DNA of 64,000 nucleotides from Chloroflexota bacterium (GTDB lineage: Bacteria; Chloroflexota; Dehalococcoidia; Bin125), in NCBI GenBank assembly GCA_009838915.1, contig VXQT01000032.1, positions 11,016 through 75,015 on the forward strand. The letters are read 5' to 3'. Shown piece after piece: positions 32,927-45,686 of this stretch. The notes beneath the pieces are model-generated. The model was not told the DNA's origin and searched no databases. It saw nothing but the letters and a program-made list of their open reading frames with translations. The position numbers were made by a program, and so were the translations under genes. The number at the start of each line of letters is the position of its first letter. Positions within the stretch are counted from its first letter, which is position 1.

Positions 32927-33244
32927 TCAACCCCCGCCGCGCTGAGCCTTGAGCATGAACCGCTCCAGGAGCGAGTCCAGATCCTCCTCCGACTTGGCCG
33001 TGAAGACGAAGAAGTGCTCATCGATCTTGGTCGGCAGCCTCGGGTGTATCGGCGCCTGTTCCGTTCGCCAGAGCACGGTCCACCCGTCGCCCGACATTGC
33101 CGCGTTGGGCCGGACCACCCCGTCCGGATCAGTCGCGCCCGGCTGCGGCAGATCGATGTCCGCCGCGCCCAGTTGTTCCAGATACTGGCGAAGCAACCAG
33201 ATCGGCACGCCGCGGAGCGTCATCTCTCTGACCGCTTGAGCCAC
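32927..33244 (-). CDS. Hypothetical protein (105 aa), first gene of the CoA-transferase operon
   Basis: The ORF has protein-like composition and no recognised domain. Same strand as the CoA-transferases, 49 nt upstream of them. Confidence 0.4.
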   Translation of the reverse strand: MAQAVREMTLRGVPIWLLRQYLEQLGAADIDLPQPGATDPDGVVRPNAAMSGDGWTVLWRTEQAPIHPRLPTKIDEHFFVFTAKSEEDLDSLLERFMLKAQRGGG

Positions 33245-33368
33245 CTCGGTCTCCTTGGAGTCCTTCGAAGTCGCGTGATAACTGCGTTACCGTACTGCGA
33301 ACCTCGTGTATCGTTACGCGATACGAGTGAATCCGTCGGCGGGGCGGATGCTCGATGAGGAGGACACG

Positions 33369-35363
33369 ATGAGCGAGCGTTCCTACTGGCAACGCATGAG
33401 CCGCAAGCGAATGAGCCGCCGCGGCATTCTCCGGGCTTCGGCCCGCGCCGGCGTCGGCGCGGCCGGACTGGCCCTGGTCGGCTGTGGGGACGATGACGAC
33501 GATCAGGCCGTGACCCAGGTCCAGTCGCAACAGCAACAGGACCAACCTCAGGCCCAACAGCAGGCCATGCAGCAGCAACAACAGCAGGCCATGCAGCAGG
33601 ACCAGGCCGATCAGGCAGCCCAGCAACAGGCAGCTCAGCAGCAGGCCCAGGAGCAGACGGCTCAGGAGCAGGCCGAGCAACAGGCCGCTCAGCAACAGGC
33701 CATGGTCTCCGACAAGAAGTACGGCGGCTACCTGATCGAGCAGTCAGCCAATGTGTACGAGACCTACGACGCGCAGCGCACGGTCGCCTCGCCTGTGCTC
33801 CAGGTCCTTGCTCGGGTGCAGTCCAAGATCCTGCGCTTCGCCCATCCGGACACGGGCGTCCTCGAGGGCGACCTGGCCGAGGCCTGGGAACTGCCCGACT
33901 CGACCACCGTCGTCTTGCACCTGCGTGACGGCGTGAACTGGCACTCGGACGGCCCCGGCGCCAACCACCCGGCCGCAGCTCCGGGCCGCGCGCTGACCAC
34001 CCAGGACATCGTCTGGAACATCGATCGCCAGCGCAACAAGCTGCTGGAGAGCGGCGAAGAGGCCGGCAACTTCGGCCGATCCGCCTACTGGGGCGGCGTC
34101 TCCTCGATCGACCAGGCCGACAACAGCGTCACCCTCAACCTGGTCGAGCCGGACGCAACCTTCGTCCAGGGCTTCGCCAACGAGTTCAACCTGATCAACC
34201 AGCCCGAACTCGTCGGCGGCACCGAAGACCAGTACACCGAAGTCGACGCCTCCAAGGTGATCGGCACCGGACCCAATATCCTCACCCGCTGGGACCCGGG
34301 CGAGGGTATCTCGGCCGTCAGGAACCCTGAATTCTACGGCCTGCCCAACAAGCCCTACCTCGACGGTTGGGTCTGGGTGCAAACCTTCCAGGACCCCAAC
34401 GCCTATCGGATCGCGTTCGAGCAGAAGCAGGTCGACTCGATGACCGACCCTGACCCGAACACGATCCTCGCCATCCACGACGACCTGATCGACGAGACCT
34501 ACCTCACCTTCCAGGGCGTCGCCAACACGGTGGCAATCTTCACGCCGTCGAACAAGGCGCCGTGGAACGACTTGCGCCTGACCCGAGCCATCGACCTGGC
34601 GACCAACCGCCGTCAGCTCATCCAGCAGCTCCACAACGGCCTGGGCAAGGTCTCCGGTCCGGTCTCCTGGATGCAGGAGGCATGGGCAATCCCGCAGGAA
34701 GAGCTGGAAACGATCCCCGGTTACCGTGTCGACAAGGACGCCGACATCGAAGAGGCGCGTGCGCTTTGGGACGCCGCCGGTGGACCGGACCTCGGACAGA
34801 TCGACTGGGTCACCTCCGAACTCTGGGCATCCCGCGCCGCATGGTCGGCGACGCCGGGCATCATCGCCGAGATGTTCAACCAGGCCTTCGGCACCGACCA
34901 GTTCAACGGCATCACCAAGCCCTACCTGGAGATCATCCCGTCCTGGATCGCCAAGGACTTCGACCCGTTCTTCAGCTGGATCCCGAACATCGAGATCCCC
35001 GACGCGCGGGCCGACATGATCGGCGCCTTCACCACCGGCGCCGGCTCCAACTACTGGGACGTCTCCGACCCCTACATCGACGAGACGTTGATCGCCGCCA
35101 AGCAGGAACTCGACTACGAGACCGCCTACCAGATGGTCCGCGACGTGCAGGCCTACGTGATGGAGCGCGGTCAGTTCGGTCGCAGCATCTGCTACAACTA
35201 CATCTACCCCTGGATCGGGTACAACTACAACAAGATCGAGAAGAAGACCGACGAGGAAGGCTGGAACTTCCTTGCCGTCAGTCTCCAGGCGATGGAGCAC
35301 TACCTCGATCTCGACGACCCGTCTGCGTCCGACCGCCAGGCGCCGTCGCCGGTTCCGCTCTGA
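33369..35363 (+). CDS. ABC transporter substrate-binding protein, family 5 (peptide/nickel/opine type), Tat-lipoprotein with Q-rich linker
   Basis: Twin-arginine/lipobox signal SRRGILRASARAGVGAAGLALVGCG, then a ~65-aa Gln/Ala-rich linker, then an SBP_bac_5-like body. Start ATG 33369 is tentative. Confidence 0.8.
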   Translation: MSERSYWQRMSRKRMSRRGILRASARAGVGAAGLALVGCGDDDDDQAVTQVQSQQQQDQPQAQQQAMQQQQQQAMQQDQADQAAQQQAAQQQAQEQTAQEQAEQQAAQQQAMVSDKKYGGYLIEQSANVYETYDAQRTVASPVLQVLARVQSKILRFAHPDTGVLEGDLAEAWELPDSTTVVLHLRDGVNWHSDGPGANHPAAAPGRALTTQDIVWNIDRQRNKLLESGEEAGNFGRSAYWGGVSSIDQADNSVTLNLVEPDATFVQGFANEFNLINQPELVGGTEDQYTEVDASKVIGTGPNILTRWDPGEGISAVRNPEFYGLPNKPYLDGWVWVQTFQDPNAYRIAFEQKQVDSMTDPDPNTILAIHDDLIDETYLTFQGVANTVAIFTPSNKAPWNDLRLTRAIDLATNRRQLIQQLHNGLGKVSGPVSWMQEAWAIPQEELETIPGYRVDKDADIEEARALWDAAGGPDLGQIDWVTSELWASRAAWSATPGIIAEMFNQAFGTDQFNGITKPYLEIIPSWIAKDFDPFFSWIPNIEIPDARADMIGAFTTGAGSNYWDVSDPYIDETLIAAKQELDYETAYQMVRDVQAYVMERGQFGRSICYNYIYPWIGYNYNKIEKKTDEEGWNFLAVSLQAMEHYLDLDDPSASDRQAPSPVPL

Positions 35364-36513: not shown

Positions 36514-37494
36514 ATGAGCCAGATCGCCGATCCCACCGTCGTCCCGCTGCGTGATCCCACGATCCTCGAGCGACTGCGCAACGCCACGGTCAGCCTCGGC
36601 CGCTTCCTGCGCGGCAAGCCGCTGGGCGGCTCCGGGTTGATCGTGGTCGTCATCTTCATCCTCGTGGCGCTGCTCGCCCCCGTCATCCAGCGCCACGACC
36701 CGGACCAGATTTTCGAAGGTCCCAATCCCGACTACAAGGCCAACCCGACCGTGATCGAACTGGCCCGCAACCCCGACATCGGCTCGCCGGTGGTCGTCGA
36801 GCAATTCATCGAACCCTCGGGCGGACACTGGTTCGGTACCGACAAGTTCGGCCGCGACATCTGGTCGCAGGTCATTCACGGCGCTCGATTGAGTCTGATC
36901 GTCGGGTTGGGCGCATCGGTGATCGCCGTGGTCGGCGGACTGATCATCGGCATGATCTCGGCTTACTACGCCGGCATCGTCGACCTGTTGATTCAACGGC
37001 TGGTTGACATGCTTCAGGCGATCCCGTTCCTGGTCCTGGTGCTGGTCTTTACCCAGATCACGGAGCGCTCTGTTCTCAATGTGGTCCTATGGCTCGGCGT
37101 CGCCGGCCTGGCGATTACGACCAGGCTGATCCGCTCGGCCGTGCTCGGCGTGCGCGAGAGCGAGTTCGTGCTGGCCGCCCGGGTCGTCGGCGCGAGCGAC
37201 CTGCGGATCATGATCCGCCACGTGCTGCCCAACTGCGTCGCCGTGCTGATCATCGCGTTCAGCATCGGCATCGGCGCCTACATCCTTGCCGAGGCATCCA
37301 TCTCCTTCCTCGGCGCGGGGCCGCAGGGCATCCCGAGCTGGGGCCAGATGGTCCAGGCCGGACGCGGTTCGCTCGACCTGCATCCCTGGCAGACCGTCTT
37401 CGCCGGCGGCGCGATCATGTTGATCGTGCTCGGCTTCAACCTGCTTGGCGACGCGCTCAGGGACGTGCTTGATCCACGCCTGCGCGGCGCTTGA
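36514..37494 (+). CDS. ABC transporter permease (DppC/OppC-like)
   Basis: HWFGTDKFGRDIWS motif and EFVLAARVVGAS EAA loop. Confidence 0.88.
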   Translation: MSQIADPTVVPLRDPTILERLRNATVSLGRFLRGKPLGGSGLIVVVIFILVALLAPVIQRHDPDQIFEGPNPDYKANPTVIELARNPDIGSPVVVEQFIEPSGGHWFGTDKFGRDIWSQVIHGARLSLIVGLGASVIAVVGGLIIGMISAYYAGIVDLLIQRLVDMLQAIPFLVLVLVFTQITERSVLNVVLWLGVAGLAITTRLIRSAVLGVRESEFVLAARVVGASDLRIMIRHVLPNCVAVLIIAFSIGIGAYILAEASISFLGAGPQGIPSWGQMVQAGRGSLDLHPWQTVFAGGAIMLIVLGFNLLGDALRDVLDPRLRGA

Positions 37495-38908
37495 CGCCGT
37501 TCGCCAGCGCCTCCGCCAGACGCCTGAACATCACCATGTGGATCGGCCAGAGCGCGTACCAGTAGACCAGTCCCCATACGCCGGCTGGATGAAAGTGCGC
37601 CTGTAACTGCGCGATCGAGCCGTCGCCGTCCGGCCGCACCGAGAGCTCCAGCACCGCCGACCCCGGCAGCTTCATCTCCGCGACCAGCGTCAGGCTCCGG
37701 TCCGGCTCCACCGCCGCGACCCGCCAGAAGTCGAGCGGGTCGTCAACCCGCAGCTCAGTCGGATGCCGCCGCCCCCGCCGCATCCCGACTCCGCCCAGCA
37801 GCCGATCGATTGCGCCGCGCAGCCGCCACAGCCAGGTCGCGTAGTACCAACCGCGCGCGCCGCCAATCGATGAGATGTCGTCCCAAACCTGGTCCGCCGA
37901 TCGAGCCGTGCTCACCTCGACGCGCACCGACTTGTCGAACCACGACACATCATGCCGCTGTCGGCGGTAACGGAAGCCGCCCTCGGTCCAGCGGATCGTC
38001 AGCGCCGCCGAACGCTCCTCCTCCAGCGCCTGAGCCACCGCTTCGCGGTAACTGGTCCCGTCAATCGGAGTCAGCTCGCGCAACTCGTCGGGACGCTCGG
38101 AGACCAGGTCATGCTTCAGTCCGTCGATCAGCGGACGCGCAATGCTGGCCGGAACCGCCGTCACCAGGTCGAGCCAGTACGACGAGAGCCTCGGACTCAG
38201 CACCGGCAGCGGCACGATCCGCACCTCGCGGCCCACGACCGCGCCAAACTGCCGAAGCAGGTCGCCGTAGCTCAGCGTCTCGGGACCGACCGCATCGTAA
38301 GTGTGCGACTCCCCGTCGTCCTCAAACGCCAACAGACCGACCAAGTAGGCCAACAGATCGTCAAGCGCGATCGGTTGGCTGCGCGACCGCACCCAGCGCG
38401 GCGCAAGCATGACCGGCAGGTGATAGACCAGGTCGCGGATCACCTCGAACGCCGCCGAGCCCGGCCCCACGACGATCCCGGCGCGCAACTCGGTCACCGG
38501 TACCGGACCGCCGCGCAGAATCTCGCCGGTTTCCAATCGCGACGCCAGGTGCGGCGACGCCCCGACCGGAGGCTGCAAGCCTCCCAGGTAGATGATCCGC
38601 CGCACGCCCACATCCGCAGCCGCATCGCGGAAGTTCGCCGCCGCGCGCCGGTCCAGCTCGGAGAACTCCTTGCCCGCCGCCATCGAGTGCACCAGGTAGT
38701 AAGCGATGTCCACGCCGTCGAGCGCCTCCTTCAGCGAGTCGAGCTCAAGGGCGTCGGCGCGTACGCACTCCACGCCGTCCCAGCCGCGGGCCCGCAGCGC
38801 ATCCACTCGACGGGCCGCCGCACGCACGTCATGGCCTGCCGCGGCGAGACGAGGCGCCAGATGTCCGCCCACATACCCGCTCGCGCCGAGGATCAGGACT
38901 CGCGTCAT
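37457..38908 (-). CDS. NAD(P)H-binding atypical SDR fused to a DUF2867-like C-terminal domain
   Basis: MTRVLILGASGYVGGHL Rossmann start. The 483-aa architecture matches NmrA-like plus DUF2867 proteins as I recall them. Confidence 0.65.
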   Translation of the reverse strand: MTRVLILGASGYVGGHLAPRLAAAGHDVRAAARRVDALRARGWDGVECVRADALELDSLKEALDGVDIAYYLVHSMAAGKEFSELDRRAAANFRDAAADVGVRRIIYLGGLQPPVGASPHLASRLETGEILRGGPVPVTELRAGIVVGPGSAAFEVIRDLVYHLPVMLAPRWVRSRSQPIALDDLLAYLVGLLAFEDDGESHTYDAVGPETLSYGDLLRQFGAVVGREVRIVPLPVLSPRLSSYWLDLVTAVPASIARPLIDGLKHDLVSERPDELRELTPIDGTSYREAVAQALEEERSAALTIRWTEGGFRYRRQRHDVSWFDKSVRVEVSTARSADQVWDDISSIGGARGWYYATWLWRLRGAIDRLLGGVGMRRGRRHPTELRVDDPLDFWRVAAVEPDRSLTLVAEMKLPGSAVLELSVRPDGDGSIAQLQAHFHPAGVWGLVYWYALWPIHMVMFRRLAEALANGVKRRAGVDQARP

Positions 38909-38954
38909 ACATCAACGCTACGCCGAGGCAACGGCGCACTGCACTCGCGCCGGA

Positions 38955-39413
38955 TCAGCGGCGCGACATCGCCTCCAGCACTCGAAACTCCGTGTAATCC
39001 TCGGGCAGCCCCTCGTCAACTGCGGCCTGGCGCATCGCCTCGAGCGCGTCGTTCCAACCCTCCGTCCAACCAACCGCAAACTGCTCGCCGTATGGCGTGT
39101 CCGCGCCTTCCCCGGCGATGACAATCCGCTCTCCCAATCGCTCCACTTCACCATGAGGCAGCCCATCGGCGTAGCCCTGATTCTCGACGGCGACGTACGC
39201 CTTTGCGTACGCCGCCTCCTCCGCCCTCCGCAAATCGTCGGAAGTGCGCAGGTTGAACGGGTCCAGCGTCGCGCCGATTAGCGCCGCCAGGAGCACGCCC
39301 ATCACCGTCGCGACCATCGTGTGCCGACCGATCGGGTCGCGGCCGCGACGCCACCACGAGCGCTCCTGCTCGTCCGTACCCCAAGTCTGCAAGGACGTTC
39401 TGCGCTGAGTCAT
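38955..39413 (-). CDS. Small single-pass membrane protein, type 1 (copy A) of the triplicated two-gene module
   Basis: Basic N-terminus with WWRRG, TM MVATVMGVLLAALIGA, AAYAKAYVAV, and C-terminal FAVGWTEGWNDALEAM. ATG 39413 overlaps the stop of copy B (ATGA). Confidence 0.6.
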   Translation of the reverse strand: MTQRRTSLQTWGTDEQERSWWRRGRDPIGRHTMVATVMGVLLAALIGATLDPFNLRTSDDLRRAEEAAYAKAYVAVENQGYADGLPHGEVERLGERIVIAGEGADTPYGEQFAVGWTEGWNDALEAMRQAAVDEGLPEDYTEFRVLEAMSRR

Positions 39414-39820
39414 TGACGCAGCGCCTCCCACGCCTCAAACGCCGATTCCACTTCCAGCTTGTTGCGCTTCGCGGTATGCAGCGCCAGATCAATCGCCGCA
39501 TTCCAGGAGAACTCGTACGAACGTCGCAGGGCGTCCGCGGGATCGCCCGAGGCGAGCAACTCGGGCAGCGCCAACTGTGCTCGTCCGGCGCCGTCCAGCC
39601 GACCGCGCTCGAACGCCGCCTCGTAGCCGTCGATCCGGCCCTCCCGCTCGCCCCGCACCTCCGCCTTGGCGATCTCCTCGGGCGTGACCTGATCCAGGAC
39701 CGAGATCATCCAGCCGATCGCCGCCGTCACGGCCATCGCCGCGAGCAACGAGATCAGCACTTGTCGCGGCAGGTCGTAGCGAAGCAGGCGCATTCCGTGA
39801 GCGTACACGCGAACCCGCAT
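39410..39820 (-). CDS. Small single-pass membrane protein, type 2 (copy B)
   Basis: YDLPRQ, TM VLISLLAAMAVTAAIGWMI, EGRIDGYEAAFERGRLDG, YEFSWNAAIDLAL, C-terminal WEALRQ. Start taken at ATG 39820 (AGGGG 8-12 nt upstream). The ORF-track start at 39994 would overlap copy C. Confidence 0.55.
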   Translation of the reverse strand: MRVRVYAHGMRLLRYDLPRQVLISLLAAMAVTAAIGWMISVLDQVTPEEIAKAEVRGEREGRIDGYEAAFERGRLDGAGRAQLALPELLASGDPADALRRSYEFSWNAAIDLALHTAKRNKLEVESAFEAWEALRQ

Positions 39821-39869
39821 CTGCAGCCCCTGTGAACACAGGGGCCCGTTCCGCGCGTGACTCACGAGA

Positions 39870-40346
39870 TCAACGTCGATCAATCCCCAAGAGCAGATCG
39901 CGTTCCCGCTGCAACTCATCCGCCGGCGCCTCGGACTCGGTGGCTCGCAGCATGGCGTCGAGCGCCGCGTTCCAGCCGTCGGTCCAGCCCTCACGAATTC
40001 CCCGCACCCAGGCAGCGTCGCCGTCCTTGTGCTCCAGTCCGAGCAGGATCAGGTGGCGCTGCCGACCCAGTTCGACGCCGCGCCGCTGCCCTTCCTCGTA
40101 GGCGGCTTCATACGCCGCATTGAACGCCGCCATCTCCTTATCCGGCAGATCAAACTCCGTCGTCACACCGAGTGGATCGAATGCCACGCCCACCACCGCG
40201 ACTAGCGCAATCGCCACGACGAACGCCAGGATCGAGTGCATGCCCGTGAAGTCGGCGCCGCGCTGCCACCATGCGCCCGCCGCGGGGTCGCTACTGCGGT
40301 AGTTGCTCAAACCATGCCGCCGGGTACGTCTCGGTTGTCTGCTCAT
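39870..40346 (-). CDS. Small single-pass membrane protein, type 1 (copy C)
   Basis: WWQRG, TM ILAFVVAIALVAVVGVAF, AAFNAAYEAAYEEG, VRGIREGWTDGWNAALDAM. ATGA overlap with copy D. Confidence 0.6.
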   Translation of the reverse strand: MSRQPRRTRRHGLSNYRSSDPAAGAWWQRGADFTGMHSILAFVVAIALVAVVGVAFDPLGVTTEFDLPDKEMAAFNAAYEAAYEEGQRRGVELGRQRHLILLGLEHKDGDAAWVRGIREGWTDGWNAALDAMLRATESEAPADELQRERDLLLGIDRR

Positions 40347-40762
40347 CGGCGCAGTGACTCCCAGTACGTCATCCGCCTGAGCTGAATCACCGGCGTATGC
40401 GACGCTTCCTCAATCGCCCGATCGATCGCCTCGTTCCAGGCCAGATCGAAGGCAAACTCGCGGCCCTCATCGAACGTCCCAGTCGACACGAGGCTGTCGA
40501 CATCACCGCGCGCCGCGAAGAACCCGTCTTCCTCGCCATCGCGCAACCCCTCCGCAAACCCGCGCGCCCGACCCTCGACCTGCCCGGTCTCCTCAATACT
40601 CTCCACCTGCGACGGCGGAATCCGCCAGAAGAACGTGATGATCAGTCCACAGGCAATCGCAACCGCGAGTCCCAGCACAAACGCCTTCGCGCTCTGCCTG
40701 GGGATGTCGTACTGCCAGAGCGACTTAACGAAAGACACGAATGACACTCTTACTGAACACAA
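40343..40762 (-). CDS. Small single-pass membrane protein, type 2 (copy D)
   Basis: YDIPRQ, TM AFVLGLAVAIACGLIITFFW, EGRARGFAEGLRDGEEDG, FAFDLAWNEAIDRAI, C-terminal YWESLRR. The start is TTG at 40762 or GTG at 40747 or 40738 (uncertain). Confidence 0.55.
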   Translation of the reverse strand: MCSVRVSFVSFVKSLWQYDIPRQSAKAFVLGLAVAIACGLIITFFWRIPPSQVESIEETGQVEGRARGFAEGLRDGEEDGFFAARGDVDSLVSTGTFDEGREFAFDLAWNEAIDRAIEEASHTPVIQLRRMTYWESLRR

Positions 40763-40780
40763 TCGTTGATCCGACGGATC

Positions 40781-41266
40781 TCACTGCTGCGGAACACGGC
40801 GCGGCTCCGTGTCCAACGCTGTGAGCTCACGCGAGTCGGGGCTCAGGCCTGCCTCGAGCGATGCCGCGAACATCGCATCCAGCGCATCGTTCCAACCCTC
40901 TGCCCATCCTTGGCGAACGCCCTCTGCCCACGCTGAGTCGCCTGACGGCCCAGACGCGAACACAAGCAGTGCAAGTTCATACGTCATGCGTTGTTCCAAA
41001 GCGGACTCGTAAGATTCGTCATATGCGGCGTCGTAGGCGTTGCTCAACGCCTCATACCTAATCTCTTCTACGTCGCCTCGCGTGGTCTGCATCTGCTGTG
41101 GCACAACCTCCAACAGCACCCAGCCGATCAATGCCGCAGTTGCCGCGCCAATCAAGAACCACGCCAGCATCCGCCTTGACGACTCGTCGGGAGGTCGCCA
41201 CATTGCGAGCCTTACGAGATCTCGTGAGCTGCCAGTCGGTGGAGTGAGCGGTGTTCCCAGACTCAT
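40781..41266 (-). CDS. Small single-pass membrane protein, type 1 (copy E)
   Basis: TM MLAWFLIGAATAALIGWVLL, ALSNAYDAAYDESY, AEGVRQGWAEGWNDALDAM. ATGA overlap with copy F. Confidence 0.6.
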   Translation of the reverse strand: MSLGTPLTPPTGSSRDLVRLAMWRPPDESSRRMLAWFLIGAATAALIGWVLLEVVPQQMQTTRGDVEEIRYEALSNAYDAAYDESYESALEQRMTYELALLVFASGPSGDSAWAEGVRQGWAEGWNDALDAMFAASLEAGLSPDSRELTALDTEPRRVPQQ

Positions 41267-41670
41267 CTTCGCAGCTCAATCCACTGGGTGTGCTCTTCCT
41301 CGTGGAGCCGCTGTCTCGGCACTCGCCGGCTGAGCGTCTCGATCGCGTCATTCCAGGCGTAGCGATACGTGGGTTGGTAACCGAGATCAAAGCTCTCGCT
41401 CGCGGTCAAACGGGGGAGCTCTTCGGAAGCTCGACGCTGAGCCTCATCAATGGCGTTCTCTTTTGCTTCCTGCTGAGCCAGATACACCCCTCGCGTTGCT
41501 CCGGCGGTCTCGACTTGATTGCGATAGGACTCAGGAATGCCACTCGGCCACGGTGTTGCTACAACCGCCAGGACGGCCACCACGATCGCGACCAGCGTAA
41601 ATCCCGCCAAGAAGGCGACCAGACTCAGCGGCCAGGCACGGATCTTGAGCAACTTGAACGTCCGCTTCAA
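41263..41670 (-). CDS. Small single-pass membrane protein, type 2 (copy F)
   Basis: Basic N-terminus MKRTFKLLKIR, TM LSLVAFLAGFTLVAIVVAVLAVVA, YRYAWNDAIETL, C-terminal QWIELRR. The TTG start overlaps the stop of the MoaD-like gene (TTGA). Confidence 0.55.
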   Translation of the reverse strand: MKRTFKLLKIRAWPLSLVAFLAGFTLVAIVVAVLAVVATPWPSGIPESYRNQVETAGATRGVYLAQQEAKENAIDEAQRRASEELPRLTASESFDLGYQPTYRYAWNDAIETLSRRVPRQRLHEEEHTQWIELRR

Positions 41671-41951
41671 TGGTGCTCGGACCCCCCTGCGACCGGGGGA
41701 AAGATGTCCAGTTCGCTGTCGGGGTTTACCCGGCTTTGCAGGCCCTCGACGTGGCGGATGTCTCGGCCGTCGACCATGATCGCGACGAAGCGGCGCACCG
41801 TGCCGTCATCGTCGAAGAGCTGCGCGCGGAGTCCGTCGTAGTCGTCGGCGAGGCGCTCCAGGACGGCGCCAATCGTGTCCGGCGGGTCGGACAACTCGAC
41901 GCTGCGGCCGCCGACAATGGGCCGCAGCGTCGCGTAGAAGCGGATCTGCAT
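41667..41951 (-). CDS. MoaD/ThiS-family ubiquitin-like sulfur-carrier protein with a 4-residue extension after the GG motif
   Basis: MQIRFYATLRPIVGGRSVEL ... DSELDIFPPVAGG-SEHH. Beta-grasp sulfur-carrier pattern. Start taken at ATG 41951. Confidence 0.7.
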   Translation of the reverse strand: MQIRFYATLRPIVGGRSVELSDPPDTIGAVLERLADDYDGLRAQLFDDDGTVRRFVAIMVDGRDIRHVEGLQSRVNPDSELDIFPPVAGGSEHH

Positions 41952-41961
41952 GGGCGTCCTG

Positions 41962-42079
41962 TGGGCCCTCACCCCAGCCCTCTCCCAGGGGGAGAGGGAG
42001 TTTAGAAGGAGAGCCCTTCGCTCAACGGATGACGAGTTCCCAACCCCTCTCCCTGAGGGAGAGGGTTAGGGTGAGGGCC
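41962..42079. repeat. Inverted pair of REP-like family 3 units (GGGCCCTCACCC-N3-CCCTCTCCC-N3-GGGAGAGGG)
   Basis: The left unit (41962-41997) and right unit (42043-42079) are reverse complements of each other, and each contains its own 9-bp hairpin. They lie between the AOR and MoaD-like genes. Confidence 0.75.
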
Positions 42080-42095
42080 CTCGCGGCTTTGATTC

Positions 42096-43958
42096 CTACG
42101 CAATGATCTCCAGCTCGCGCAGCTTGGCCTCGCCGACAACGCCGTCGTCCCAGCCTCGGGCGTCGTAGTACTGCTCCTTCATCTGGTCGAGCTCGCAGAC
42201 GTGGCCTTCCGCCGGGCCGCTGCCCGGTTCGGTCAGGAAGCGCTCGGGCAGCGAGTCGTCGCTGCCGTCGAAGCCGGCCAGGTTGTTGTAGTAGCGCTCG
42301 AGGTTGTAGATGCGCTCGCCGGCGACCATCACGTCCTCTTCGGACATCGGCAGGCCGACGACAGTCTCGTAGAGCGCCGCGTACTCAGGCGCGCCCACCG
42401 CGAAGGCGGAGAACTTGCACAGGTCGAGCGAGTCGGAGAAGGCGTGCAGGTCCTGGAAGATCTTGAGCAGCGGACCCTTGCCGTCCCACTCCAGCGGGTC
42501 GGTCTGCACGGGAATGCCCAGCAGCTCCGAGGCCGGCGTGTAGCCGCGCAGGTGGCAGGCGCCGCGATTCGAGGTGGCGTAGCCCAGGCCCTCGCCCTTG
42601 ATCCCGCGCGGGTCGTAGGCCGGCACCGCCTGGCCCTTGACCGTCATCGAGATCTCCGGGTGGCCCCAGGCCGCCGCCGCCTTGGCCGTTCCCTGAGCCA
42701 GCGTCTGACCGATCGAGGACGAACCCATCGCCATCTCCTCGGCCACGCGGACCATGCCCGCGCCGTCGCCCCAGTCGAGCGGCGTGTCGACGTAGCCGCG
42801 CTCCGATGCCTCCATGTACATCGAGATCACGTTGCCGATCTCGATCGCGTCCATGCCGTAGTCGTTGCACTGGTCGATCACCTTGGCGATCACCGCCGGG
42901 TCGTCGTTGCCGCAGTTTGCGCCCAGCGACCAGGCCGGCTCATACTCGAACGACTCCATCTTCAGGCCCGCGTGCGGACCCTCGGTGATCTCGACTTCTT
43001 TCTTGCAGGCCACCGGACAGGCGTGACAGGTCGGCTCGGCGGTCAGGAAGTCATCGCGCATCGTCTCGCCTGAGACCGCGTTGGCCGCCTCCGGCGTGGT
43101 CTGCGTCGCCTGCGAATTCTTCGTGCCCAATCCGCCGACCGCGTTGACCGCGTTCATCAGCACGTTGGTCCCGAACGCCGAGAGCGCGCCCGAGCCCTCC
43201 TTGAGCGAACCGTCGTCGTTGACCGACGACGGCGCCGTCACCGGCGACTCCATGATCAGCTTGAGGTGCGCGCCCTGCGCCTCGCGGAAGGCCTGACGCT
43301 TCTCGCCCTGCTCCGGTCGCCAGCGTCCCTCGCGCGTGCCGCGCACGACCACGCACTTCAGATTCTTCATCCCGGCAACCGCGCCGGTGCCGCCACGACC
43401 GGCCGCGCGGTCGTCCTCGTTGAGGAAAGAAGCAAACAGCACGCCGTTCTCGCCAGCCTGCCCAATCGACATCACCGAGACATCGGTCTTGTTACCGCTG
43501 TCAGAGCCGAAGTGGGCCACCGTGTCGTGGATGCCCTTGCCCCAGATCTCGGAGGCGTCGCGAATGGCAACCTCGCCGTTCTCAACTTCCAGATAGACCG
43601 GCGAGTTCGCCTTGCCCGTGATCAGAACCGCGTCGAAACCGGCCCAGCGCAGCCGCGCCGCCGACCAGCCGCCCATGTGCGAGTCGGTCACCGTGCCCGT
43701 CAGCGGGGACTTGGTCACGAAGGCCAGGCGTCCCGACATCGTCACCTCGGTGCCGGTCAGCGGTCCGTTGACCAGCGCCAGCATGTTGTCGGGAGAACTG
43801 GGATCGACATCCGCGCCGTTGTCGAGCAGGTACTTGACCCCCAGCCCGCGAGCGCCGATGTACTTGCGTGCGTCGTCCTCATTGATACCTTCGTAGGAGA
43901 CCGAGCGGTCAGTCAGATTGACCCGAGCCACCCGATTCGCAAAACCGCCAAGTGCCAT
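42096..43958 (-). CDS. aor: Aldehyde:ferredoxin oxidoreductase (tungsten/molybdopterin AOR family)
   Basis: ~620 aa. N-terminal FANRVARVNLTD, 4Fe-4S/pterin ligand region EPTCHACPVACKK, and GNRGACHLRGY-type segment SNRGACHLRGY. Confidence 0.88.
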   Translation of the reverse strand: MALGGFANRVARVNLTDRSVSYEGINEDDARKYIGARGLGVKYLLDNGADVDPSSPDNMLALVNGPLTGTEVTMSGRLAFVTKSPLTGTVTDSHMGGWSAARLRWAGFDAVLITGKANSPVYLEVENGEVAIRDASEIWGKGIHDTVAHFGSDSGNKTDVSVMSIGQAGENGVLFASFLNEDDRAAGRGGTGAVAGMKNLKCVVVRGTREGRWRPEQGEKRQAFREAQGAHLKLIMESPVTAPSSVNDDGSLKEGSGALSAFGTNVLMNAVNAVGGLGTKNSQATQTTPEAANAVSGETMRDDFLTAEPTCHACPVACKKEVEITEGPHAGLKMESFEYEPAWSLGANCGNDDPAVIAKVIDQCNDYGMDAIEIGNVISMYMEASERGYVDTPLDWGDGAGMVRVAEEMAMGSSSIGQTLAQGTAKAAAAWGHPEISMTVKGQAVPAYDPRGIKGEGLGYATSNRGACHLRGYTPASELLGIPVQTDPLEWDGKGPLLKIFQDLHAFSDSLDLCKFSAFAVGAPEYAALYETVVGLPMSEEDVMVAGERIYNLERYYNNLAGFDGSDDSLPERFLTEPGSGPAEGHVCELDQMKEQYYDARGWDDGVVGEAKLRELEIIA

Positions 43959-44051
43959 GATCGTTCCCTTCACCATCGCTCTGGTTTGCGCGTCAAAGAT
44001 AGCGGATTGCCGCAGCGTTCCCGAGCCGGCGTCTCTTGCAAATCCGAGTGC

Positions 44052-45686
44052 CTACGGCCGCATCCCGTAACGCACCCGAACGCCCAGTTGACTCGGCAGC
44101 TGCGTCTCGTAGGCGATCTTCAGCCACTCAGCCAACATTGGTCGCGTGTCTCGAGGATCGATGATGTCCTCGACCGCGAACGCCTCGGCCGCAGAGAACG
44201 GGTCGCGCAGCGCAATCAGCCGCTCTTCGATCGCCGCGCGATGCGCGACCGGATCTTCCGCTGCCTCGATTTCGCGTCGATAGGCGGCTGCGACCCCGCC
44301 CTCGATCGGCAGCGAACCCCACTCGCCCGACGGCCAGGCGATGCGGAAACAGAAGCGGCTGAAATCCTGATGCGCGCCGCCAGCGACTCCGTAGAGCCGC
44401 CGCACGACCACCGTCGCCCAGGGCACCCGCGAATCGTTGATCGCCGCCGCCGCCTTCACTCCGGCGCGCAGCGTGCCCGCCGACTCGCCCGGCCGACCGA
44501 TCAGGAATCCCGGCTGGTCGGCCAGGTTCACAATCGGCAGGTGGAAGACATCGCACATGTCGACGAATTTCTCGAACTTGCGCGCCTCCTTGGCGCCCAT
44601 CGCGCCGCCGTAGTGCATCGGATCGTTGGCCAGCACGCCGATCGGCATCCCGCCGATCCGCACGAGTCCCGTCACCTGCGCCCGACCGAAGTAGCGCCCG
44701 ATCTCGAAGAACGATCCTCGGTCAACGACCAACTCAATCATGCGGCGCACGTTGTAGCCGCGATTGCGATGCTTCGGGATGATCGAGGCGAGCCGCTCCT
44801 CCCGCCGGTCGAGTGGATCGTCATACTTCATCACCGGCGGAAGCTGATGCACGTTGGTCGGGAGGTAGGAGAGGAACCTGCGAATCTGGCGCATGGCGTC
44901 CGCCTCGTCCTCGGCGTCGTTGTCGACCACGCCGCTGCTGCGCGCGTGGACCTCGTAGCCGCCCAATTCCTCCTTGGTCAGCTTCTCGCCCATCGACCGT
45001 TCGACCAGCGGCGGACCGCCGGCGAACACTTGCGACGAGCCGCGCACCATCACCGAGAAGTGCGAGGCCGGAACCTCCGCCGCCGGCAGACCCGCGACCG
45101 AACCCAGCGCCGCCGAGACCACCGGCGACTGCGACATCAACGTGCCCCAGCGCTCAGGCCAGAACAGCTCCGGCAGGTAGGTCCGACCCATCTCGGCGGT
45201 CGCGCGGATGTCGCCGCCGAACCCGTCGATCAGGCGGATCATCGGGATCTTCATTTCGATCGCCAGCGACTCGATATGCCCCGACTTGTCGCCGCCGCTG
45301 TGAATCCGAATCTTGCCGCCGTTCCCCGACTCGGCCTCGGAGCCGCTGCGCGGCCGCGAGGTGAAGTCGCCGCCCGACACCGCGACCGGACGTCCATCGA
45401 TCTGTCCGGTGCCGATCACGGTCGCCGCCGGATGAAACCCAACCAGTTCGCCGTCGTCGTCGTAGTAGCCGGCGCCCGCCAGGATGCCGCGCTCGCGGAA
45501 CGAATCCTGGTCGAGCAGCAGGTCGATTCGCTCACGAACCGTGAGATTGCCCCGCTCATGCTGCTGCTGTACGCGGTCCGCGCCGCCCATCTGCTTCGCC
45601 AACTCACGTCGGCGCTCAATCTGATCAATCTCCGCTTGCCAGATTGACTCTGAGGACTCAGCCCTGGCTTTGGTCTGGTCTGCCAT
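44052..45686 (-). CDS. Acyl-CoA carboxylase carboxyltransferase (beta) subunit, second paralogue
   Basis: AKQMGGADRVQQQHERGNLTVRERIDLLLDQDSF opening and CT domain throughout. Start taken at MADQTK (ATG 45686). Confidence 0.85.
   Translation of the reverse strand: MADQTKARAESSESIWQAEIDQIERRRELAKQMGGADRVQQQHERGNLTVRERIDLLLDQDSFRERGILAGAGYYDDDGELVGFHPAATVIGTGQIDGRPVAVSGGDFTSRPRSGSEAESGNGGKIRIHSGGDKSGHIESLAIEMKIPMIRLIDGFGGDIRATAEMGRTYLPELFWPERWGTLMSQSPVVSAALGSVAGLPAAEVPASHFSVMVRGSSQVFAGGPPLVERSMGEKLTKEELGGYEVHARSSGVVDNDAEDEADAMRQIRRFLSYLPTNVHQLPPVMKYDDPLDRREERLASIIPKHRNRGYNVRRMIELVVDRGSFFEIGRYFGRAQVTGLVRIGGMPIGVLANDPMHYGGAMGAKEARKFEKFVDMCDVFHLPIVNLADQPGFLIGRPGESAGTLRAGVKAAAAINDSRVPWATVVVRRLYGVAGGAHQDFSRFCFRIAWPSGEWGSLPIEGGVAAAYRREIEAAEDPVAHRAAIEERLIALRDPFSAAEAFAVEDIIDPRDTRPMLAEWLKIAYETQLPSQLGVRVRYGMRP

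What the first reader, a model, noticed from the sequence alone, without database searches (positions are those of the whole stretch)
38955..41670. Three tandem copies of a translationally coupled two-gene module encoding alternating families of small single-pass membrane proteins
Six consecutive minus-strand genes (135-161 aa) alternate between two types. Type 2 (F, D, B) has YD(L/I)PRQ in two of the three copies, a TM helix, G(Y/F)xxGxxxG-like repeats, (Y/F)x(F/Y)xxAWN(A/E/D)AI(D/E), and a C-terminal W(E/I)xLR(Q/R). Type 1 (E, C, A) has a basic N-terminus with WW(Q/R)RG in two copies, a TM helix, NAY(D/E)AAY(D/E)E-like helices, and WxxGxxxGWx(E/D)GWN(D/A)AL(D/E)AM. Within each pair the type-1 ATG overlaps the type-2 stop (ATGA at 41263-66, 40343-46 and 39410-13). 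Both types share a WN-x-A-(L/I) core, so they appear to be distant paralogues. The positive-inside rule puts the acidic ~90-aa C-terminal domains outside the cell. The copies are strongly diverged at the DNA level, so this is an old triplication that has been maintained rather than a recent duplication. I cannot place the proteins in any named family. The GxxxG-spaced aromatic repeats loosely recall Yae1/FliH-type motifs. This is the best candidate in the window for an undescribed system.
Basis: seen in the sequence. Interest (0 to 1): 0.8.

Follow-up and report, generated by a model that had tools for sequence, protein, structure and literature searches.

The report
Paired small membrane proteins beside AOR
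Three back-to-back gene pairs encode a previously unnamed family of small single-pass membrane proteins with glycine-zipper-like helices; the family occurs only in one group of uncultured Dehalococcoidia (many MAG names suggest sponge hosts), always just downstream of a tungsten aldehyde oxidoreductase gene, and its function is unknown.

Summary
Six minus-strand genes (38955-41670) alternate between two distantly paralogous types (T2 then T1). All three T2 stop / T1 start junctions overlap as ATGA.

The genes are real. Orthologues occur in more than 35 Dehalococcoidia/Chloroflexota MAGs, with dN/dS of 0.10-0.46. No Pfam, NCBIfam, PADLOC, PHROG or PDB assignment was found.

An exhaustive HMMER search of 1.84 billion representatives found only about 60 full-length clusters. 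Weaker hits are Yae1_N-type "GX3" repeat proteins.

Both types have a basic N-tail, a conserved TM helix and an acidic helical-hairpin ectodomain. The ectodomain carries significant small-xxx-small stripes.

The pair is the evolutionary unit:
- The order is always T2 then T1, and 59 of 63 junctions overlap by 4 nt.
- Six cognate pair subfamilies co-diverge, and copy number is 1-3 per genome.
- Relatives carry chimeric remnants of lost pairs.

The array always follows AOR and a MoaD/ThiS-like gene. AOR-ThiS operons at 70% AOR identity or less lack it, so it is a clade-specific insertion.

Best reading: co-translated, membrane-anchored T2:T1 hetero-oligomers held together by GX3 stripes. The physiological role is unresolved. 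Novelty: new variant of a known kind. Interest is moderate.

The parts
41263..41670 (-). F: type-2 (T2) bitopic GX3 protein, 135 aa, TTG start; pair subfamily T2.1
   Evidence: ORF and start. Matches the T2 HMM at E 1.9e-51. Orthologues in L012, L017 and L038 give dN/dS 0.24-0.37. The start overlaps the ThiS stop (TTGA).
40781..41266 (-). E: type-1 (T1) bitopic GX3 protein, 161 aa; cognate partner of F (subfamily T1.3)
   Evidence: The ATG overlaps the stop of F (ATGA at 41263-66). Matches the T1 HMM at E 4e-51. dN/dS is 0.40-0.46. Always found next to T2.1.
40343..40762 (-). D: T2 protein. The longest ORF is 139 aa (TTG 40762); the likely start is GTG 40738, giving 131 aa. Subfamily T2.6
   Evidence: Orthologues, and the cluster that holds the window's own protein, are 131 aa. 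dN/dS is 0.15-0.26.
39870..40346 (-). C: T1 protein, 158 aa; cognate partner of D (T1.6)
   Evidence: ATGA overlap at 40343-46. Eight homologous clusters at 55-100% identity. AF2 model: TM 36-55, helices 67-104, 112-139 and 142-153. dN/dS is 0.23-0.27.
39410..39793 (-). B: T2 protein, 127 aa (alternative ATG 39820 gives 136 aa); subfamily T2.5. With A it forms the core pair, present in all 31 B-seeded loci
   Evidence: Orthologues are 60-97% identical across 31 species-level genomes, and the TM helix and helix 1 are nearly invariant. AF2 model at pLDDT 75: TM 8-33, helices 38-82, 85-110 and 116-126. dN/dS is 0.10-0.14.
38955..39413 (-). A: T1 protein, 152 aa; cognate partner of B (T1.7)
   Evidence: ATGA overlap at 39410-13. 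dN/dS is 0.12-0.23. In a mirror-tree test, A-B distances correlate at r=0.81, and at partial r=0.61 after controlling for AOR and ThiS.
41667..41972 (-). ThiS/MoaD-like small protein (…FPPVAGG + SEHH), immediately upstream of the array
   Evidence: Pfam ThiS at E 3.4e-14. Lies between AOR and the first T2 in every locus that has upstream DNA. MoaD-like genes in AOR operons are considered W-cofactor maturation factors (PMC6365974).
42096..43976 (-). Aldehyde:ferredoxin oxidoreductase family (tungsten) enzyme; first gene of the putative operon
   Evidence: Pfam AFOR_N and AFOR_C at E 1e-71 and 1e-125. 87-98% identical in all loci that carry pairs.
37457..38908 (-). SDR (NmrA-like) + DUF2867 protein, same strand, 46 nt downstream of A; a facultative neighbour
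   Evidence: Pfam. Present downstream of the array in about 60% of loci.
32927..33244 (-). 105-aa 'RGVPIWLLRQY…DGWTVLW…GGG' protein (precomputed Pfam label for its orthologues: MoaD_arch). It lies next to ThiS in AOR operons that lack the array
   Evidence: ORF. Orthologues are labelled PF09189. In AOR loci at 67-70% identity its homologue directly follows ThiS. In L036 it directly follows the two pairs. My own Pfam scan of four homologues from related loci (not the window ORF) gave no hit at E<=0.01.

Best explanation
The six genes are three diverged copies of one two-gene module, T2 then T1. The module belongs to an unannotated, clade-restricted family of small bitopic membrane proteins.

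Each protein has four parts:
- a short basic cytoplasmic N-tail with a conserved juxtamembrane motif (T2: YD[LI]PRQ; T1: W-x-R-x-x-D-x-x-G-x-H);
- one sequence-conserved TM helix carrying G/A-xxx-G/A;
- a C-terminal domain of about 95-100 aa, acidic (mean net charge about -6 in T2 and -11.5 in T1), predicted to be a helical hairpin plus a short C-terminal helix;
- a stripe of small residues every fourth position down both hairpin helices (a degenerate 'GX3' or Yae1_N/FliH-type repeat), ending in the (G/A)WN-x-A-(L/I) cap.

Proposed mechanism, with each step marked as shown or inferred:
1. The array is co-transcribed with AOR and the MoaD-like gene. This is inferred from same-strand arrangement, gaps of 0-123 nt, and no predicted terminator.
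2. T1 is translated by termination-reinitiation at the ATGA overlap. The overlap is shown in sequence and conserved in 59 of 63 pairs. That this gives about 1:1 amounts is inferred.
3. Both proteins insert N-in/C-out. This is inferred from the positive-inside rule.
4. Cognate T2 and T1 pack through their TM and ectodomain small-xxx-small stripes into a membrane-anchored heterodimer or higher oligomer. This is inferred from pair co-divergence, the mirror-tree result, and analogy with GX3-mediated Yae1-Lto1 and FliH dimerisation.

The array is a lineage-specific insertion into an older AOR-ThiS-(MoaD_arch-like) cluster, so it is an accessory of that operon rather than a general AOR subunit. My best guess for its role is an extracytoplasmic, membrane-tethered acidic scaffold specific to this Dehalococcoidia clade (an envelope or cell-surface function), expressed together with AOR.

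Approximate probabilities:
- real coding genes: 0.98
- cognate hetero-oligomers: 0.7
- N-in/C-out topology: 0.75
- co-transcription with AOR: 0.7
- envelope/surface role rather than a direct role in AOR function: 0.4
For: Genes and selection:
- ORFs and overlaps.
- Homologues exist only in Chloroflexota/Dehalococcoidia MAGs, all labelled 'hypothetical protein'.
- dN/dS is 0.10-0.27 for A-D and 0.24-0.46 for E and F.

The pair is the unit:
- In every usable locus that carries the family (38 distinct places after removing duplicate contigs; 37 tabulated, plus L041), the order is T2 then T1, in 1-3 pairs.
- 59 of 63 junctions are ATGA or GTGA overlaps.
- T2 subfamilies always sit next to the same T1 subfamily: 2.5/1.7, 2.6/1.6, 2.1/1.3, 2.4/1.4, 2.3/1.1 and 2.2/1.2.
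- A-B distance matrices correlate at r=0.81, and at partial r=0.61 against 0.16-0.24 for control genes.

Architecture:
- AF2 models show a TM helix, a hairpin and a C-terminal helix.
- The GX3 stripes are significant.
- The TM helix of B is nearly invariant.
- The positive-inside rule is satisfied in 53 of 62 T1 and 48 of 61 T2 proteins, and the C-terminal domain is acidic.

GX3 relationship:
- 9 of 55 T2 proteins give sub-threshold Yae1_N hits.
- The exhaustive profile search finds, after about 60 family clusters, proteins that Pfam assigns to Yae1_N.
- These include small bitopic proteins ending in G(Y/F)xxGWNxA(L/I).
- GX3 motifs mediate Yae1-Lto1 complex formation (PMC4523923), and GxxxG repeats characterise FliH, which is described as forming a dimer (PMC2674601).

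Context:
- AOR then ThiS then the array in all loci with upstream DNA.
- Of 80 metagenomic AOR loci, only the one with 91% AOR identity has pairs.
- Loci at 67-70% AOR identity have AOR-ThiS-(MoaD_arch-like) with nothing in between.
- L036 has AOR-ThiS-2 pairs-MoaD_arch.
Against: - There is no direct evidence for expression, membrane insertion, topology or interaction.
- The structure tool could not model complexes.
- The monomer models have modest confidence (pLDDT 69-75, pTM 0.29-0.37).
- The mirror-tree signal could come from tight linkage rather than physical interaction.
- The positive-inside bias is moderate: K+R counts of 3.4 against 2.1 for T1 and 2.9 against 1.25 for T2.
- An extracytoplasmic scaffold role does not explain why the array is never found away from AOR-ThiS, nor why both proteins keep conserved cytoplasmic juxtamembrane motifs.
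- All carriers are fairly close relatives with extended synteny, so the conserved neighbourhood is weak functional evidence in either direction.
- The similarity to Yae1_N may be convergent, since the repeats are low-complexity.
Confidence: 0.5

Rival explanations
1. AOR-dedicated adaptor or tether. The T2:T1 GX3 heterodimer acts on AOR itself. One version has it tethering the cytoplasmic enzyme, or its MoaD-like maturation factor, to the membrane through the conserved cytoplasmic N-terminal motifs. The other version, if the topology is actually C-in, has it acting like Yae1-Lto1 as a GX3 adaptor pair that recruits apo-AOR for [4Fe-4S] or tungstopterin insertion.
For: - The array is strictly co-located and co-oriented with AOR and the MoaD-like gene wherever the family occurs.
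- The ThiS stop overlaps the start of F.
- Cytoplasmic juxtamembrane motifs are conserved across subfamilies.
- The AORs that carry pairs share an 11-aa insertion that AORs without pairs lack.
- Yae1-Lto1 is a paralogous GX3 pair serving as a client-specific Fe-S adaptor (PMC4523923).
- T2 has a conserved Trp five residues from its C-terminus.
Against: - AOR-ThiS operons at 70% identity or less work without the array.
- Charge distribution predicts that the GX3 domain is outside the cell.
- There are no conserved Cys or His ligands.
- The cytoplasmic parts are only about 10-35 residues long.
- The AOR insertion may simply mark the clade.
- Pfam Yae1_N is not reached at threshold.
Confidence: 0.2
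2. Membrane-anchored WXG100/Esx-like pairs. The ectodomains would be remote relatives of ESAT-6-family helical hairpins, which also come as tandem, amplified gene pairs and form heterodimeric four-helix bundles. Here they would be displayed on the membrane through an N-terminal anchor instead of being secreted by a type VII system.
For: - The T1 profile hits EsxR (PDB 3h6p) over nearly its full length, at E 0.019 for the full T1 profile and E 0.0068 for the ectodomain alone. The alignment is in register helix-turn-helix and includes GWxxxWNxAL.
- The predicted hairpin of about 95 aa, the paired genes and the amplification all parallel esx loci.
Against: - Only one of the many WXG100 chains in the PDB is hit, and the E-values are marginal.
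- No Pfam WXG100 hit at E<=10 was found for 24 T1 proteins, 55 T2 proteins or the family consensus sequences.
- Foldseek finds nothing in the PDB.
- The motif at the turn is W-x-x-G at the start of a helix, not W-x-G in a loop.
- No FtsK/EssC-like gene lies in any locus.
- WXG100 proteins have no TM anchor.
Confidence: 0.07
3. Incidental passenger. The family is a lineage-specific (possibly phage-derived) set of small membrane proteins that landed in a strongly expressed operon. Its function would be unrelated to AOR, for example phage exclusion, host interaction or stress response. The association would reflect only shared ancestry of closely related genomes.
For: - The family is confined to one clade and is absent from more distant AOR operons.
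- Copy number is in flux, with chimeric pseudogenes.
- A remote relative with the same TM+GX3+GWNDA architecture (P0192) sits on a phage-like contig.
- AOR has unusually low dS, consistent with high expression.
Against: - The B/A pair is retained, at dN/dS of about 0.1-0.2, in all 31 B-seeded loci, and always at the same spot.
- There are no PADLOC hits and no significant PHROG hits.
- No mobile-element genes flank the array.
Confidence: 0.2
4. Artefact. The ORFs are chance open frames in GC-rich DNA, and the repeats are non-coding.
For: High-GC DNA (63-68% here) produces many spurious long ORFs on both strands.
Against: - Orthologues occur in dozens of genomes with dN/dS well below 1.
- Frame-specific conservation, conserved start/stop overlaps and coherent predicted structures all point to coding sequence.
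Confidence: 0.01

Closest known systems
Yae1/Lto1 deca-GX3 proteins (Pfam PF09811, Yae1_N)
   Same: - A long run of small-xxx-small (GX3) repeats on helices.
- Two paralogous GX3 proteins expected to form a heterodimer through those repeats.
- Sub-threshold Yae1_N hits in 9 of 55 T2 proteins.
- The nearest out-of-family hits of the family profile are Pfam-confirmed Yae1_N proteins.
   Different: - The Pfam gathering threshold is not reached, and none of the six window proteins hits at E<=10.
- The repeats are degenerate, mixing G, A and S, and are split over two hairpin helices.
- The proteins have an N-terminal TM anchor and a probably extracytoplasmic location.
- They are bacterial and operon-encoded, with no CIA machinery and no C-terminal-residue Trp.
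FliH/YscL AxxxG(xxxG)mxxxA glycine-repeat segment
   Same: The repeat type is the same: T1-C reads A74-A78-A82-G86-G90-G94. In FliH the repeat-bearing helix is associated with dimerisation. Weak NCBIfam FliH hits fall exactly on this segment.
   Different: The scores are 11-14 bits against cut-offs of 180-293. There is no FliH C-terminal domain, no FliI-type ATPase and no type III genes nearby. FliH is soluble and cytoplasmic.
Uncharacterised small bitopic or lipoprotein 'DGYxxGYxxG…GWNxA(L/I)' proteins of bacteria and phages (for example P0192, P0200, P0214; phrog_4785, phrog_8530)
   Same: The architecture is the same: an N-terminal TM helix or signal, an acidic GX3 repeat, and a terminal G(Y/F)xxGWNxA(L/I) cap. 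The profile E-values are database-wide significant, 1e-5 to 1e-4.
   Different: Those proteins have regular Gly/Tyr repeats. They were not seen as T2/T1 pairs and are not next to AOR; the one context examined is a phage-like contig. Their function is also unknown.
WXG100 / ESAT-6-like (EsxR-EsxS) heterodimers
   Same: A helical hairpin of about 95-100 aa, tandem paralogous gene pairs that are amplified, and a marginal profile match to EsxR that includes GWxxxWNxAL.
   Different: No Pfam WXG100 signal, no canonical W-x-G turn, a TM anchor, no type VII genes in the loci, and no Foldseek match.
AOR operons with MoaD-like accessory genes (aorABCDE of Aromatoleum aromaticum)
   Same: The AOR gene is followed by a MoaD/ThiS-like putative W-cofactor maturation gene.
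   Different: No described AOR operon includes small bitopic membrane-protein pairs. Here there are also no AorA (poly-ferredoxin) or AorC (FAD) subunit genes.

Membership tests
Pfam PF09811 Yae1_N (deca-GX3) | Score at or above the Pfam gathering threshold (27.5 bits) | tested here: not met
   None of the six window proteins hits at E<=10. 9 of 55 T2 proteins (best E 0.0017) and 1 of 24 T1 proteins hit, all below threshold.
Pfam PF09811 Yae1_N (deca-GX3) | About ten consecutive G-x-x-x repeats on one helix | tested here: inconclusive
   T2 has 8 + 6 conserved small columns at period 4, split over two helices. T1 has 3 + 3 in helix 1 (one break), three consecutive plus further positions in helix 2. 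Only about 5-6 of these are Gly; the rest are Ala or Ser.
Pfam PF09811 Yae1_N (deca-GX3) | GX3-dependent heterodimer of two paralogues | not testable with these tools
   Only indirect support is available: cognate pair co-divergence, translational coupling and the mirror-tree result. No multimer modelling was available.
FliH/YscL | Match to the FliH models at their curated cut-off, with the FliH C-terminal domain | tested here: not met
   NCBIfam FliH hits score 11-14 bits against cut-offs of 180-293, and only over the glycine-repeat segment. There is no Pfam FliH hit.
FliH/YscL | Encoded alongside a FliI/YscN ATPase and export apparatus | tested here: not met
   The neighbours are AOR, ThiS, SDR-DUF2867, an ABC transporter and CoA-transferases.
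WXG100 (ESAT-6-like) | Match to the Pfam WXG100 model | tested here: not met
   No hit at E<=10 for 24 T1 proteins, 55 T2 proteins or the consensus ectodomains.
WXG100 (ESAT-6-like) | Helix-turn-helix hairpin of about 100 aa with W-x-G in the turn | tested here: inconclusive
   AF2 predicts a hairpin. T1 has a conserved W-x-x-G at the start of helix 2, not W-x-G. EsxR is matched at E 0.0068-0.019. Foldseek finds nothing.
WXG100 (ESAT-6-like) | Linked to an FtsK/SpoIIIE-type (EssC/EccC) secretion ATPase; secreted, with no TM anchor | tested here: not met
   No such gene lies within ±8-10 kb in any locus. All members have a strongly hydrophobic 19-mer, median Kyte-Doolittle 2.3-2.5. Whole genomes were not searched.
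MoaD/ThiS-like accessory of AOR operons (for gene 41667-41972 only) | ThiS-fold Pfam match, a C-terminal Gly-Gly, and adjacency to an AOR gene | tested here: met
   Pfam ThiS at E 3.4e-14. The …VAGG motif is conserved, followed by a variable tail. The gene is adjacent to AOR in all loci. Precedent: PMC6365974.
Known anti-phage defence or phage protein families | Match to PADLOC or PHROG models | tested here: not met
   PADLOC gives no hits at E<=1. The best PHROG hit is E 0.002, to a family of unknown function.

The most novel reading that the evidence does not exclude
The T2:T1 pairs are a bacterial counterpart of the eukaryotic Yae1-Lto1 adaptor. In this reading, a membrane-bound heterodimer of two paralogous GX3-repeat proteins is dedicated to one metalloenzyme client. 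It would recruit or tether the tungsten/[4Fe-4S] AOR, or its MoaD-like maturation factor, for cofactor loading or membrane localisation. The amplified cognate pairs would provide variant docking platforms. The clade-specific 11-aa insertion in AOR would be the docking site.
Probability: 0.1. Interest if true: 0.75.

Novelty: new variant of a known kind. Interest (0 to 1): 0.45.

Why it matters
The result defines a conserved, selected and completely unannotated protein family of about 60 clusters at 50% identity, with no Pfam or NCBIfam model.

The family has an unusually clean genetic signature: obligate T2 then T1 pairs, overlapping stop and start codons, cognate co-divergence, and copy-number flux.

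It also extends the GX3 ('deca-GX3', Yae1/FliH-type) helix-packing motif to membrane-anchored, probably extracytoplasmic, heteromeric bacterial proteins. If the pairs prove to dimerise through these stripes, they would be a compact natural model for how soluble glycine-zipper helices specify cognate partners.

If they turn out to act on the neighbouring tungsten AOR, they would be a new kind of accessory factor for a poorly understood enzyme family in abundant, uncultured Dehalococcoidia whose MAG names suggest sponge hosts.

If neither holds, this remains a lineage-specific envelope protein family of local interest only.

Tried and rejected
1. Pfam and NCBIfam scans of the six proteins, of 24 T1 and 55 T2 family members, and of the family consensus sequences. 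No family reached threshold. Only weak Yae1_N, FliH and miscellaneous TM-driven hits appeared.
2. PADLOC and PHROGs gave nothing meaningful.
3. PDB sequence-profile searches gave only a marginal EsxR hit and TM noise such as ErbB2 TM helices and L19e.
4. Foldseek of both AF2 models against the PDB, and of T1 against BFVD, gave no match at E<0.8. Single long helices with a TM segment are poor Foldseek queries, so this is uninformative rather than negative.
5. The search for related loci with the broad T2 alignment failed because no stretch was conserved enough. It was repeated with B-type orthologues only, so that genome survey is biased toward B-containing loci.
T1 diversity was therefore taken from the loci.
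7. The promoter/terminator scan found no sigma-70-like promoter, and only one terminator-like site (on the plus strand, 42071-42084) in 37000-44500, fewer than in shuffles. It gives no evidence for an internal transcription unit, but the scan is weak for this phylum.
8. The idea that the hydrophobic segment is a cleavable signal peptide was rejected. The h-region is more than 20 residues long and conserved in sequence, T1 has a 35-aa N-tail, and there is no A-x-A site.
9. Holin/spanin, toxin-antitoxin and anti-sigma readings were considered and dropped for lack of any supporting hit or neighbouring gene.

Full report
**1. What is in the sequence**

The window is GC-rich, 63-70%. Between 38955 and 41670 the minus strand carries six consecutive ORFs:
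- F, 41263-41670, 135 aa, TTG start.
- E, 40781-41266, 161 aa.
- D, 40343-40762 as the longest ORF. GTG 40738 gives 131 aa, the length of the orthologues and of the database cluster that holds the window's own protein.
- C, 39870-40346, 158 aa.
- B, 39410-39793, 127 aa. An alternative ATG at 39820 gives 136 aa.
- A, 38955-39413, 152 aa.

The T1 start overlaps the T2 stop as ATGA at 41263-66, 40343-46 and 39410-13. The TTG start of F also overlaps the stop of the upstream ThiS-like gene, TTGA at 41667-70.

At the DNA level the three modules share only a 66-nt stretch at about 70% identity with a 918/920-nt period (the GWxxGWNxALxAM motif), plus a 19-nt stretch over the WN motif. The triplication is therefore real, regular and old.

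**2. The genes are real and the family is unnamed**

Pfam, NCBIfam, PADLOC and PHROGs give no significant assignment.

Homologues exist only in Chloroflexota/Dehalococcoidia metagenome-assembled genomes, and every one is labelled 'hypothetical protein'.

A scan of one genome per GTDB species found 31 loci, all in 'Dehalococcoidia/Chloroflexota bacterium' MAGs. From my own knowledge, several isolate names (IRC, RHO, PNGco, bin125) look like sponge-metagenome bins. This was not verified here.

An exhaustive HMMER search with a combined T1+T2 profile against 1.84 billion representative proteins returned 115 hits at E<=1e-3. Only about 60 of them are full-length family members.

Nei-Gojobori estimates against five related genomes give these dN/dS values:

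| Gene(s) | dN/dS |
|---|---|
| B | 0.10-0.14 |
| A | 0.12-0.23 |
| C, D | 0.15-0.27 |
| E, F | 0.24-0.46 |
| SDR neighbour | about 0.13 |

All six genes are therefore under purifying selection. The outer pair (F/E) is the least constrained.

**3. Architecture**

Both types have:
- a basic N-tail;
- a strongly hydrophobic segment (median Kyte-Doolittle 2.3-2.5 over 19 residues);
- an acidic C-terminal domain of about 95-100 residues, with mean net charge -11.5 for T1 and -6 for T2.

K+R residues are enriched on the N-side of the hydrophobic segment in 53 of 62 T1 and 48 of 61 T2 proteins. This predicts N-in/C-out; it is an inference, not a measurement.

AlphaFold2 monomer models gave:
- B at pLDDT 75: TM 8-33, then helices 38-82, 85-110 and 116-126.
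- C at pLDDT 69: TM 36-55, then helices 67-104, 112-139 and 142-153.

Each is a helical hairpin plus a short C-terminal helix.

Across 64 T1 and 64 T2 sequences, conserved small residues (G, A or S) fall at every fourth position along both ectodomain helices:
- T2 ectodomain positions 11-15-19-23-27-31-35-39 and 55-59-63-67-71-75.
- T1 ectodomain positions 14-18-22, 30-34-38, 64-68-72 and 80-84.

The i, i+4 excess is significant against column shuffles: 12 against 3.9±1.6 for T2, and 9 against 2.6±1.4 for T1, P of about 5e-5 or less. The stripe continues into the TM helix, where T1 has conserved Gly eight residues apart. The TM helix of B is almost invariant among 11 orthologues, which argues for specific helix-helix packing rather than a passive anchor.

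Short cytoplasmic juxtamembrane motifs are also conserved across subfamilies: T2 has D-x-x-R-Q, and T1 has W-x-R-x-x-D-x-x-G-x-H.

T1 and T2 are related to each other. With the TM helix included, hhalign gives 97% probability and E 1.2e-10. With ectodomains only, it gives 80% and E 1.5e-5, over 36 columns around the turn and the WN motif.

**4. The pair is the unit of evolution**

HMM classification of all ORFs covered 38 distinct loci.
- The order is invariably T2 then T1, in one, two or three pairs.
- 59 of 63 junctions are 4-nt ATGA or GTGA overlaps.
- Clustering gives cognate subfamilies that always travel together: T2.5/T1.7 (= B/A, present in all 31 B-seeded loci), T2.6/T1.6 (= D/C), T2.1/T1.3 (= F/E), T2.4/T1.4 (a fourth pair that sits downstream of B/A in relatives and is absent from the window), T2.3/T1.1 and T2.2/T1.2.
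- Distances between A orthologues and between B orthologues correlate at r=0.81. The partial correlation is 0.61 after removing AOR and ThiS distances, against 0.16-0.24 for control gene pairs.

Copy number is in flux:
- The closest relative found (L005, B 97% identical) has a D::C chimera where D and C should be. It is joined at the shared WN-x-A-L motif and carries an in-frame TAG.
- L001 has a 146-aa fusion of a T2 C-terminus to a T1 ectodomain without a TM helix.
- L003 has a 384-nt gap with no recognisable ORF where the first pair would be.

**5. Genomic context**

In every locus with enough upstream DNA the array follows, on the same strand, an aldehyde:ferredoxin oxidoreductase-family gene and then a ThiS/MoaD-like gene. 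The AOR is 87-98% identical to the window's, and the ThiS-like protein ends in …VAGG. SDR-DUF2867 follows the array in about 60% of loci.

MoaD-like genes are known accessories of AOR operons and are thought to act in W-cofactor maturation (PMC6365974).

I then collected 80 AOR loci from JGI metagenomes.
- Only the one with 91% AOR identity carries T1/T2, as three pairs.
- Loci at 67-70% AOR identity have AOR-ThiS followed directly by a soluble protein of about 95 aa (RGLPEWLIR…DGWSVSW) and no T1/T2.
- The window's homologue of that small protein lies about 5.7 kb further on, at 32927-33244 on the minus strand, beyond SDR and a convergent ABC transporter.
- In L036 it directly follows two pairs.

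The array is therefore a clade-specific insertion into an older AOR-ThiS-X cluster.

AORs from pair-bearing loci share an 11-residue insertion ('SVNDDGSLKEG') and a 2-residue insertion that AORs without pairs lack. This may only mark the clade.

**6. Relation to known families**

The weak hits that recur are all to GX3-repeat families:
- FliH in NCBIfam, at 11-14 bits against cut-offs of 180-293, on the glycine-repeat segment only.
- Yae1_N in Pfam, in 9 of 55 T2 and 1 of 24 T1 proteins, with a best E of 0.0017, below the gathering score.

In the exhaustive search, the hits that follow the family itself are proteins that Pfam assigns to Yae1_N with confidence, for example P0174 at 1.6e-26, P0176 at 1.5e-31 and P0186 at 1.2e-16.

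Many of these are small bitopic or lipoprotein-like proteins whose DGYxxGYxxG arrays end in G(Y/F)xxGWNxA(L/I). That is the 'WN-x-A-(L/I) core' of T1 and T2. One of them, P0192, lies on a phage-like contig.

In eukaryotes the deca-GX3 motifs of the paralogues Yae1 and Lto1 mediate their complex formation (PMC4523923). FliH carries AxxxG(xxxG)mxxxA repeats (PMC2674601).

The best description is therefore a divergent, membrane-anchored, paired variant of GX3-repeat proteins. It is not a demonstrable member of Pfam Yae1_N.

A second lead was WXG100. The T1 profile matches EsxR (3h6p) over its whole hairpin at E 0.019, or 0.0068 with the ectodomain alone. The lead is not backed by Pfam WXG100, by Foldseek or by the gene neighbourhood, so I keep it as a low-probability rival.

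**7. How it most likely works**

Shown:
- Tandem T2 then T1 genes with overlapping stop and start codons.
- Purifying selection.
- Cognate co-divergence.
- GX3 stripes.
- Invariant placement after AOR-ThiS.
- Absence of the array from more distant AOR operons.

Inferred:
- Co-transcription with AOR. The gaps are 0-123 nt and no terminator was predicted.
- Roughly 1:1 synthesis through termination-reinitiation.
- N-in/C-out insertion.
- Assembly of cognate T2:T1 hetero-oligomers through the TM and ectodomain small-xxx-small stripes. This would give a membrane-tethered, highly acidic helical bundle outside the cell.

Role: because AOR-ThiS operons work without the array elsewhere, I favour a clade-specific envelope or surface scaffold that is merely co-expressed with AOR, at probability about 0.4. 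A direct AOR adaptor or tether role is about 0.2, and an unrelated passenger function about 0.2. None of these readings explains everything. The strict linkage to AOR and the conserved cytoplasmic motifs remain unexplained by the favoured one.

**8. Verdict**

The family is new and unannotated, and it belongs to a recognisable motif class (GX3 repeats). I rate it a new variant of a known kind.

Interest is moderate at 0.45. The genetic signature is clean and the hetero-dimerisation hypothesis is testable. Against that, the taxonomic range is narrow, the hosts are uncultured, and there is no functional read-out yet.

Noticed in passing
window 42096-43976 (-) and orthologues in L003, L006, L012, L017, L038: AOR is far more conserved than its neighbours, at 87-98% aa identity. 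It also has markedly lower synonymous divergence: dS 0.41-0.60, against 0.64-1.9 for the adjacent genes in the same genome pairs. This suggests very strong codon-level constraint (high expression) or recent exchange of the gene between lineages.
   Followed up: partly
window AOR, approximately residues 263-273 (within 42096-43976, -): All AORs from loci that carry T2/T1 pairs share an 11-aa insertion ('SVNDDGSLKEG') and a 2-aa insertion ('NK/NS' in GSDSGNKTD). AOR homologues at 70% identity or less, which have no pairs, lack both. This could be a docking loop or just a clade marker.
   Followed up: partly
window 41667-41972 (-); L001:4546-4818; L003:8929-9225: The ThiS/MoaD-like protein has a conserved …FPPVAGG end followed by a variable tail: none in L001, SEHH in the window, ASPGVVLD in L003. 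This pattern is expected if the Gly-Gly is exposed by processing, or if the tail is dispensable.
   Followed up: no
window 32927-33244 (-); L043:7110-7373, L045:7114-7401, L115:7083-7394, L036:10012-10356: A small soluble protein (RG[LV]P.WL[IL]R.Y…DGW[ST]V.W…, ending in GGG in the window) directly follows AOR-ThiS in more distant relatives. In the window it is displaced by about 5.7 kb. Precomputed annotation calls its orthologues PF09189 MoaD_arch, but my own Pfam scan of four homologues from related loci gave no hit at E<=0.01.
   Followed up: partly
L005:730-1140: The closest relative found has a D::C chimera between ThiS and B. The N-terminal two thirds of T2-D is fused at the shared WN/WD-x-A-L motif to the C-terminus of T1-C, with an in-frame TAG. 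It is a recombination scar showing how pairs are lost.
   Followed up: yes
L001:4908-5348: A 146-aa ORF fuses a T2 C-terminal fragment (YDYSWNEAVERAL) to a TM-less T1 ectodomain. It is a degenerate remnant of the first pair in a complete 2.7-Mb genome.
   Followed up: partly
L007:8847-9709, L014:8850-9730, L024:8846-9720, L029, L030, L038:9720-10594: A fourth cognate pair subfamily (T2.4/T1.4) sits downstream of B/A in several relatives and is absent from the window. In some T1.4 members the GWN motif is replaced by GR(R/Q)D.
   Followed up: partly
window 33306-35363 (+): The SBP_bac_5 solute-binding protein has a long Gln-rich low-complexity linker (…QQQQDQPQAQQQAMQQQQQQAMQQDQADQAAQQQAAQQQ…) between its signal/anchor region and the binding domain.
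   Followed up: no
L040:1607-1900 (P0192): A 97-aa protein with the same TM + GX3 + GWNDAVDAI architecture lies among many tiny ORFs on a phage-like contig, whose neighbours include Phage_T4_Y00F. Phages evidently carry small bitopic GX3 proteins of unknown function (phrog_4785, phrog_8530).
   Followed up: partly
L003:5849-6888 (-) and L038:4702-5492 (-): Two overlapping genes with no Pfam hit (162 and 184 aa in L003) are inserted on the opposite strand between the carboxyltransferase and AOR in some relatives. They are not present in the window. They are unrelated to T1/T2 by eye.
   Followed up: no
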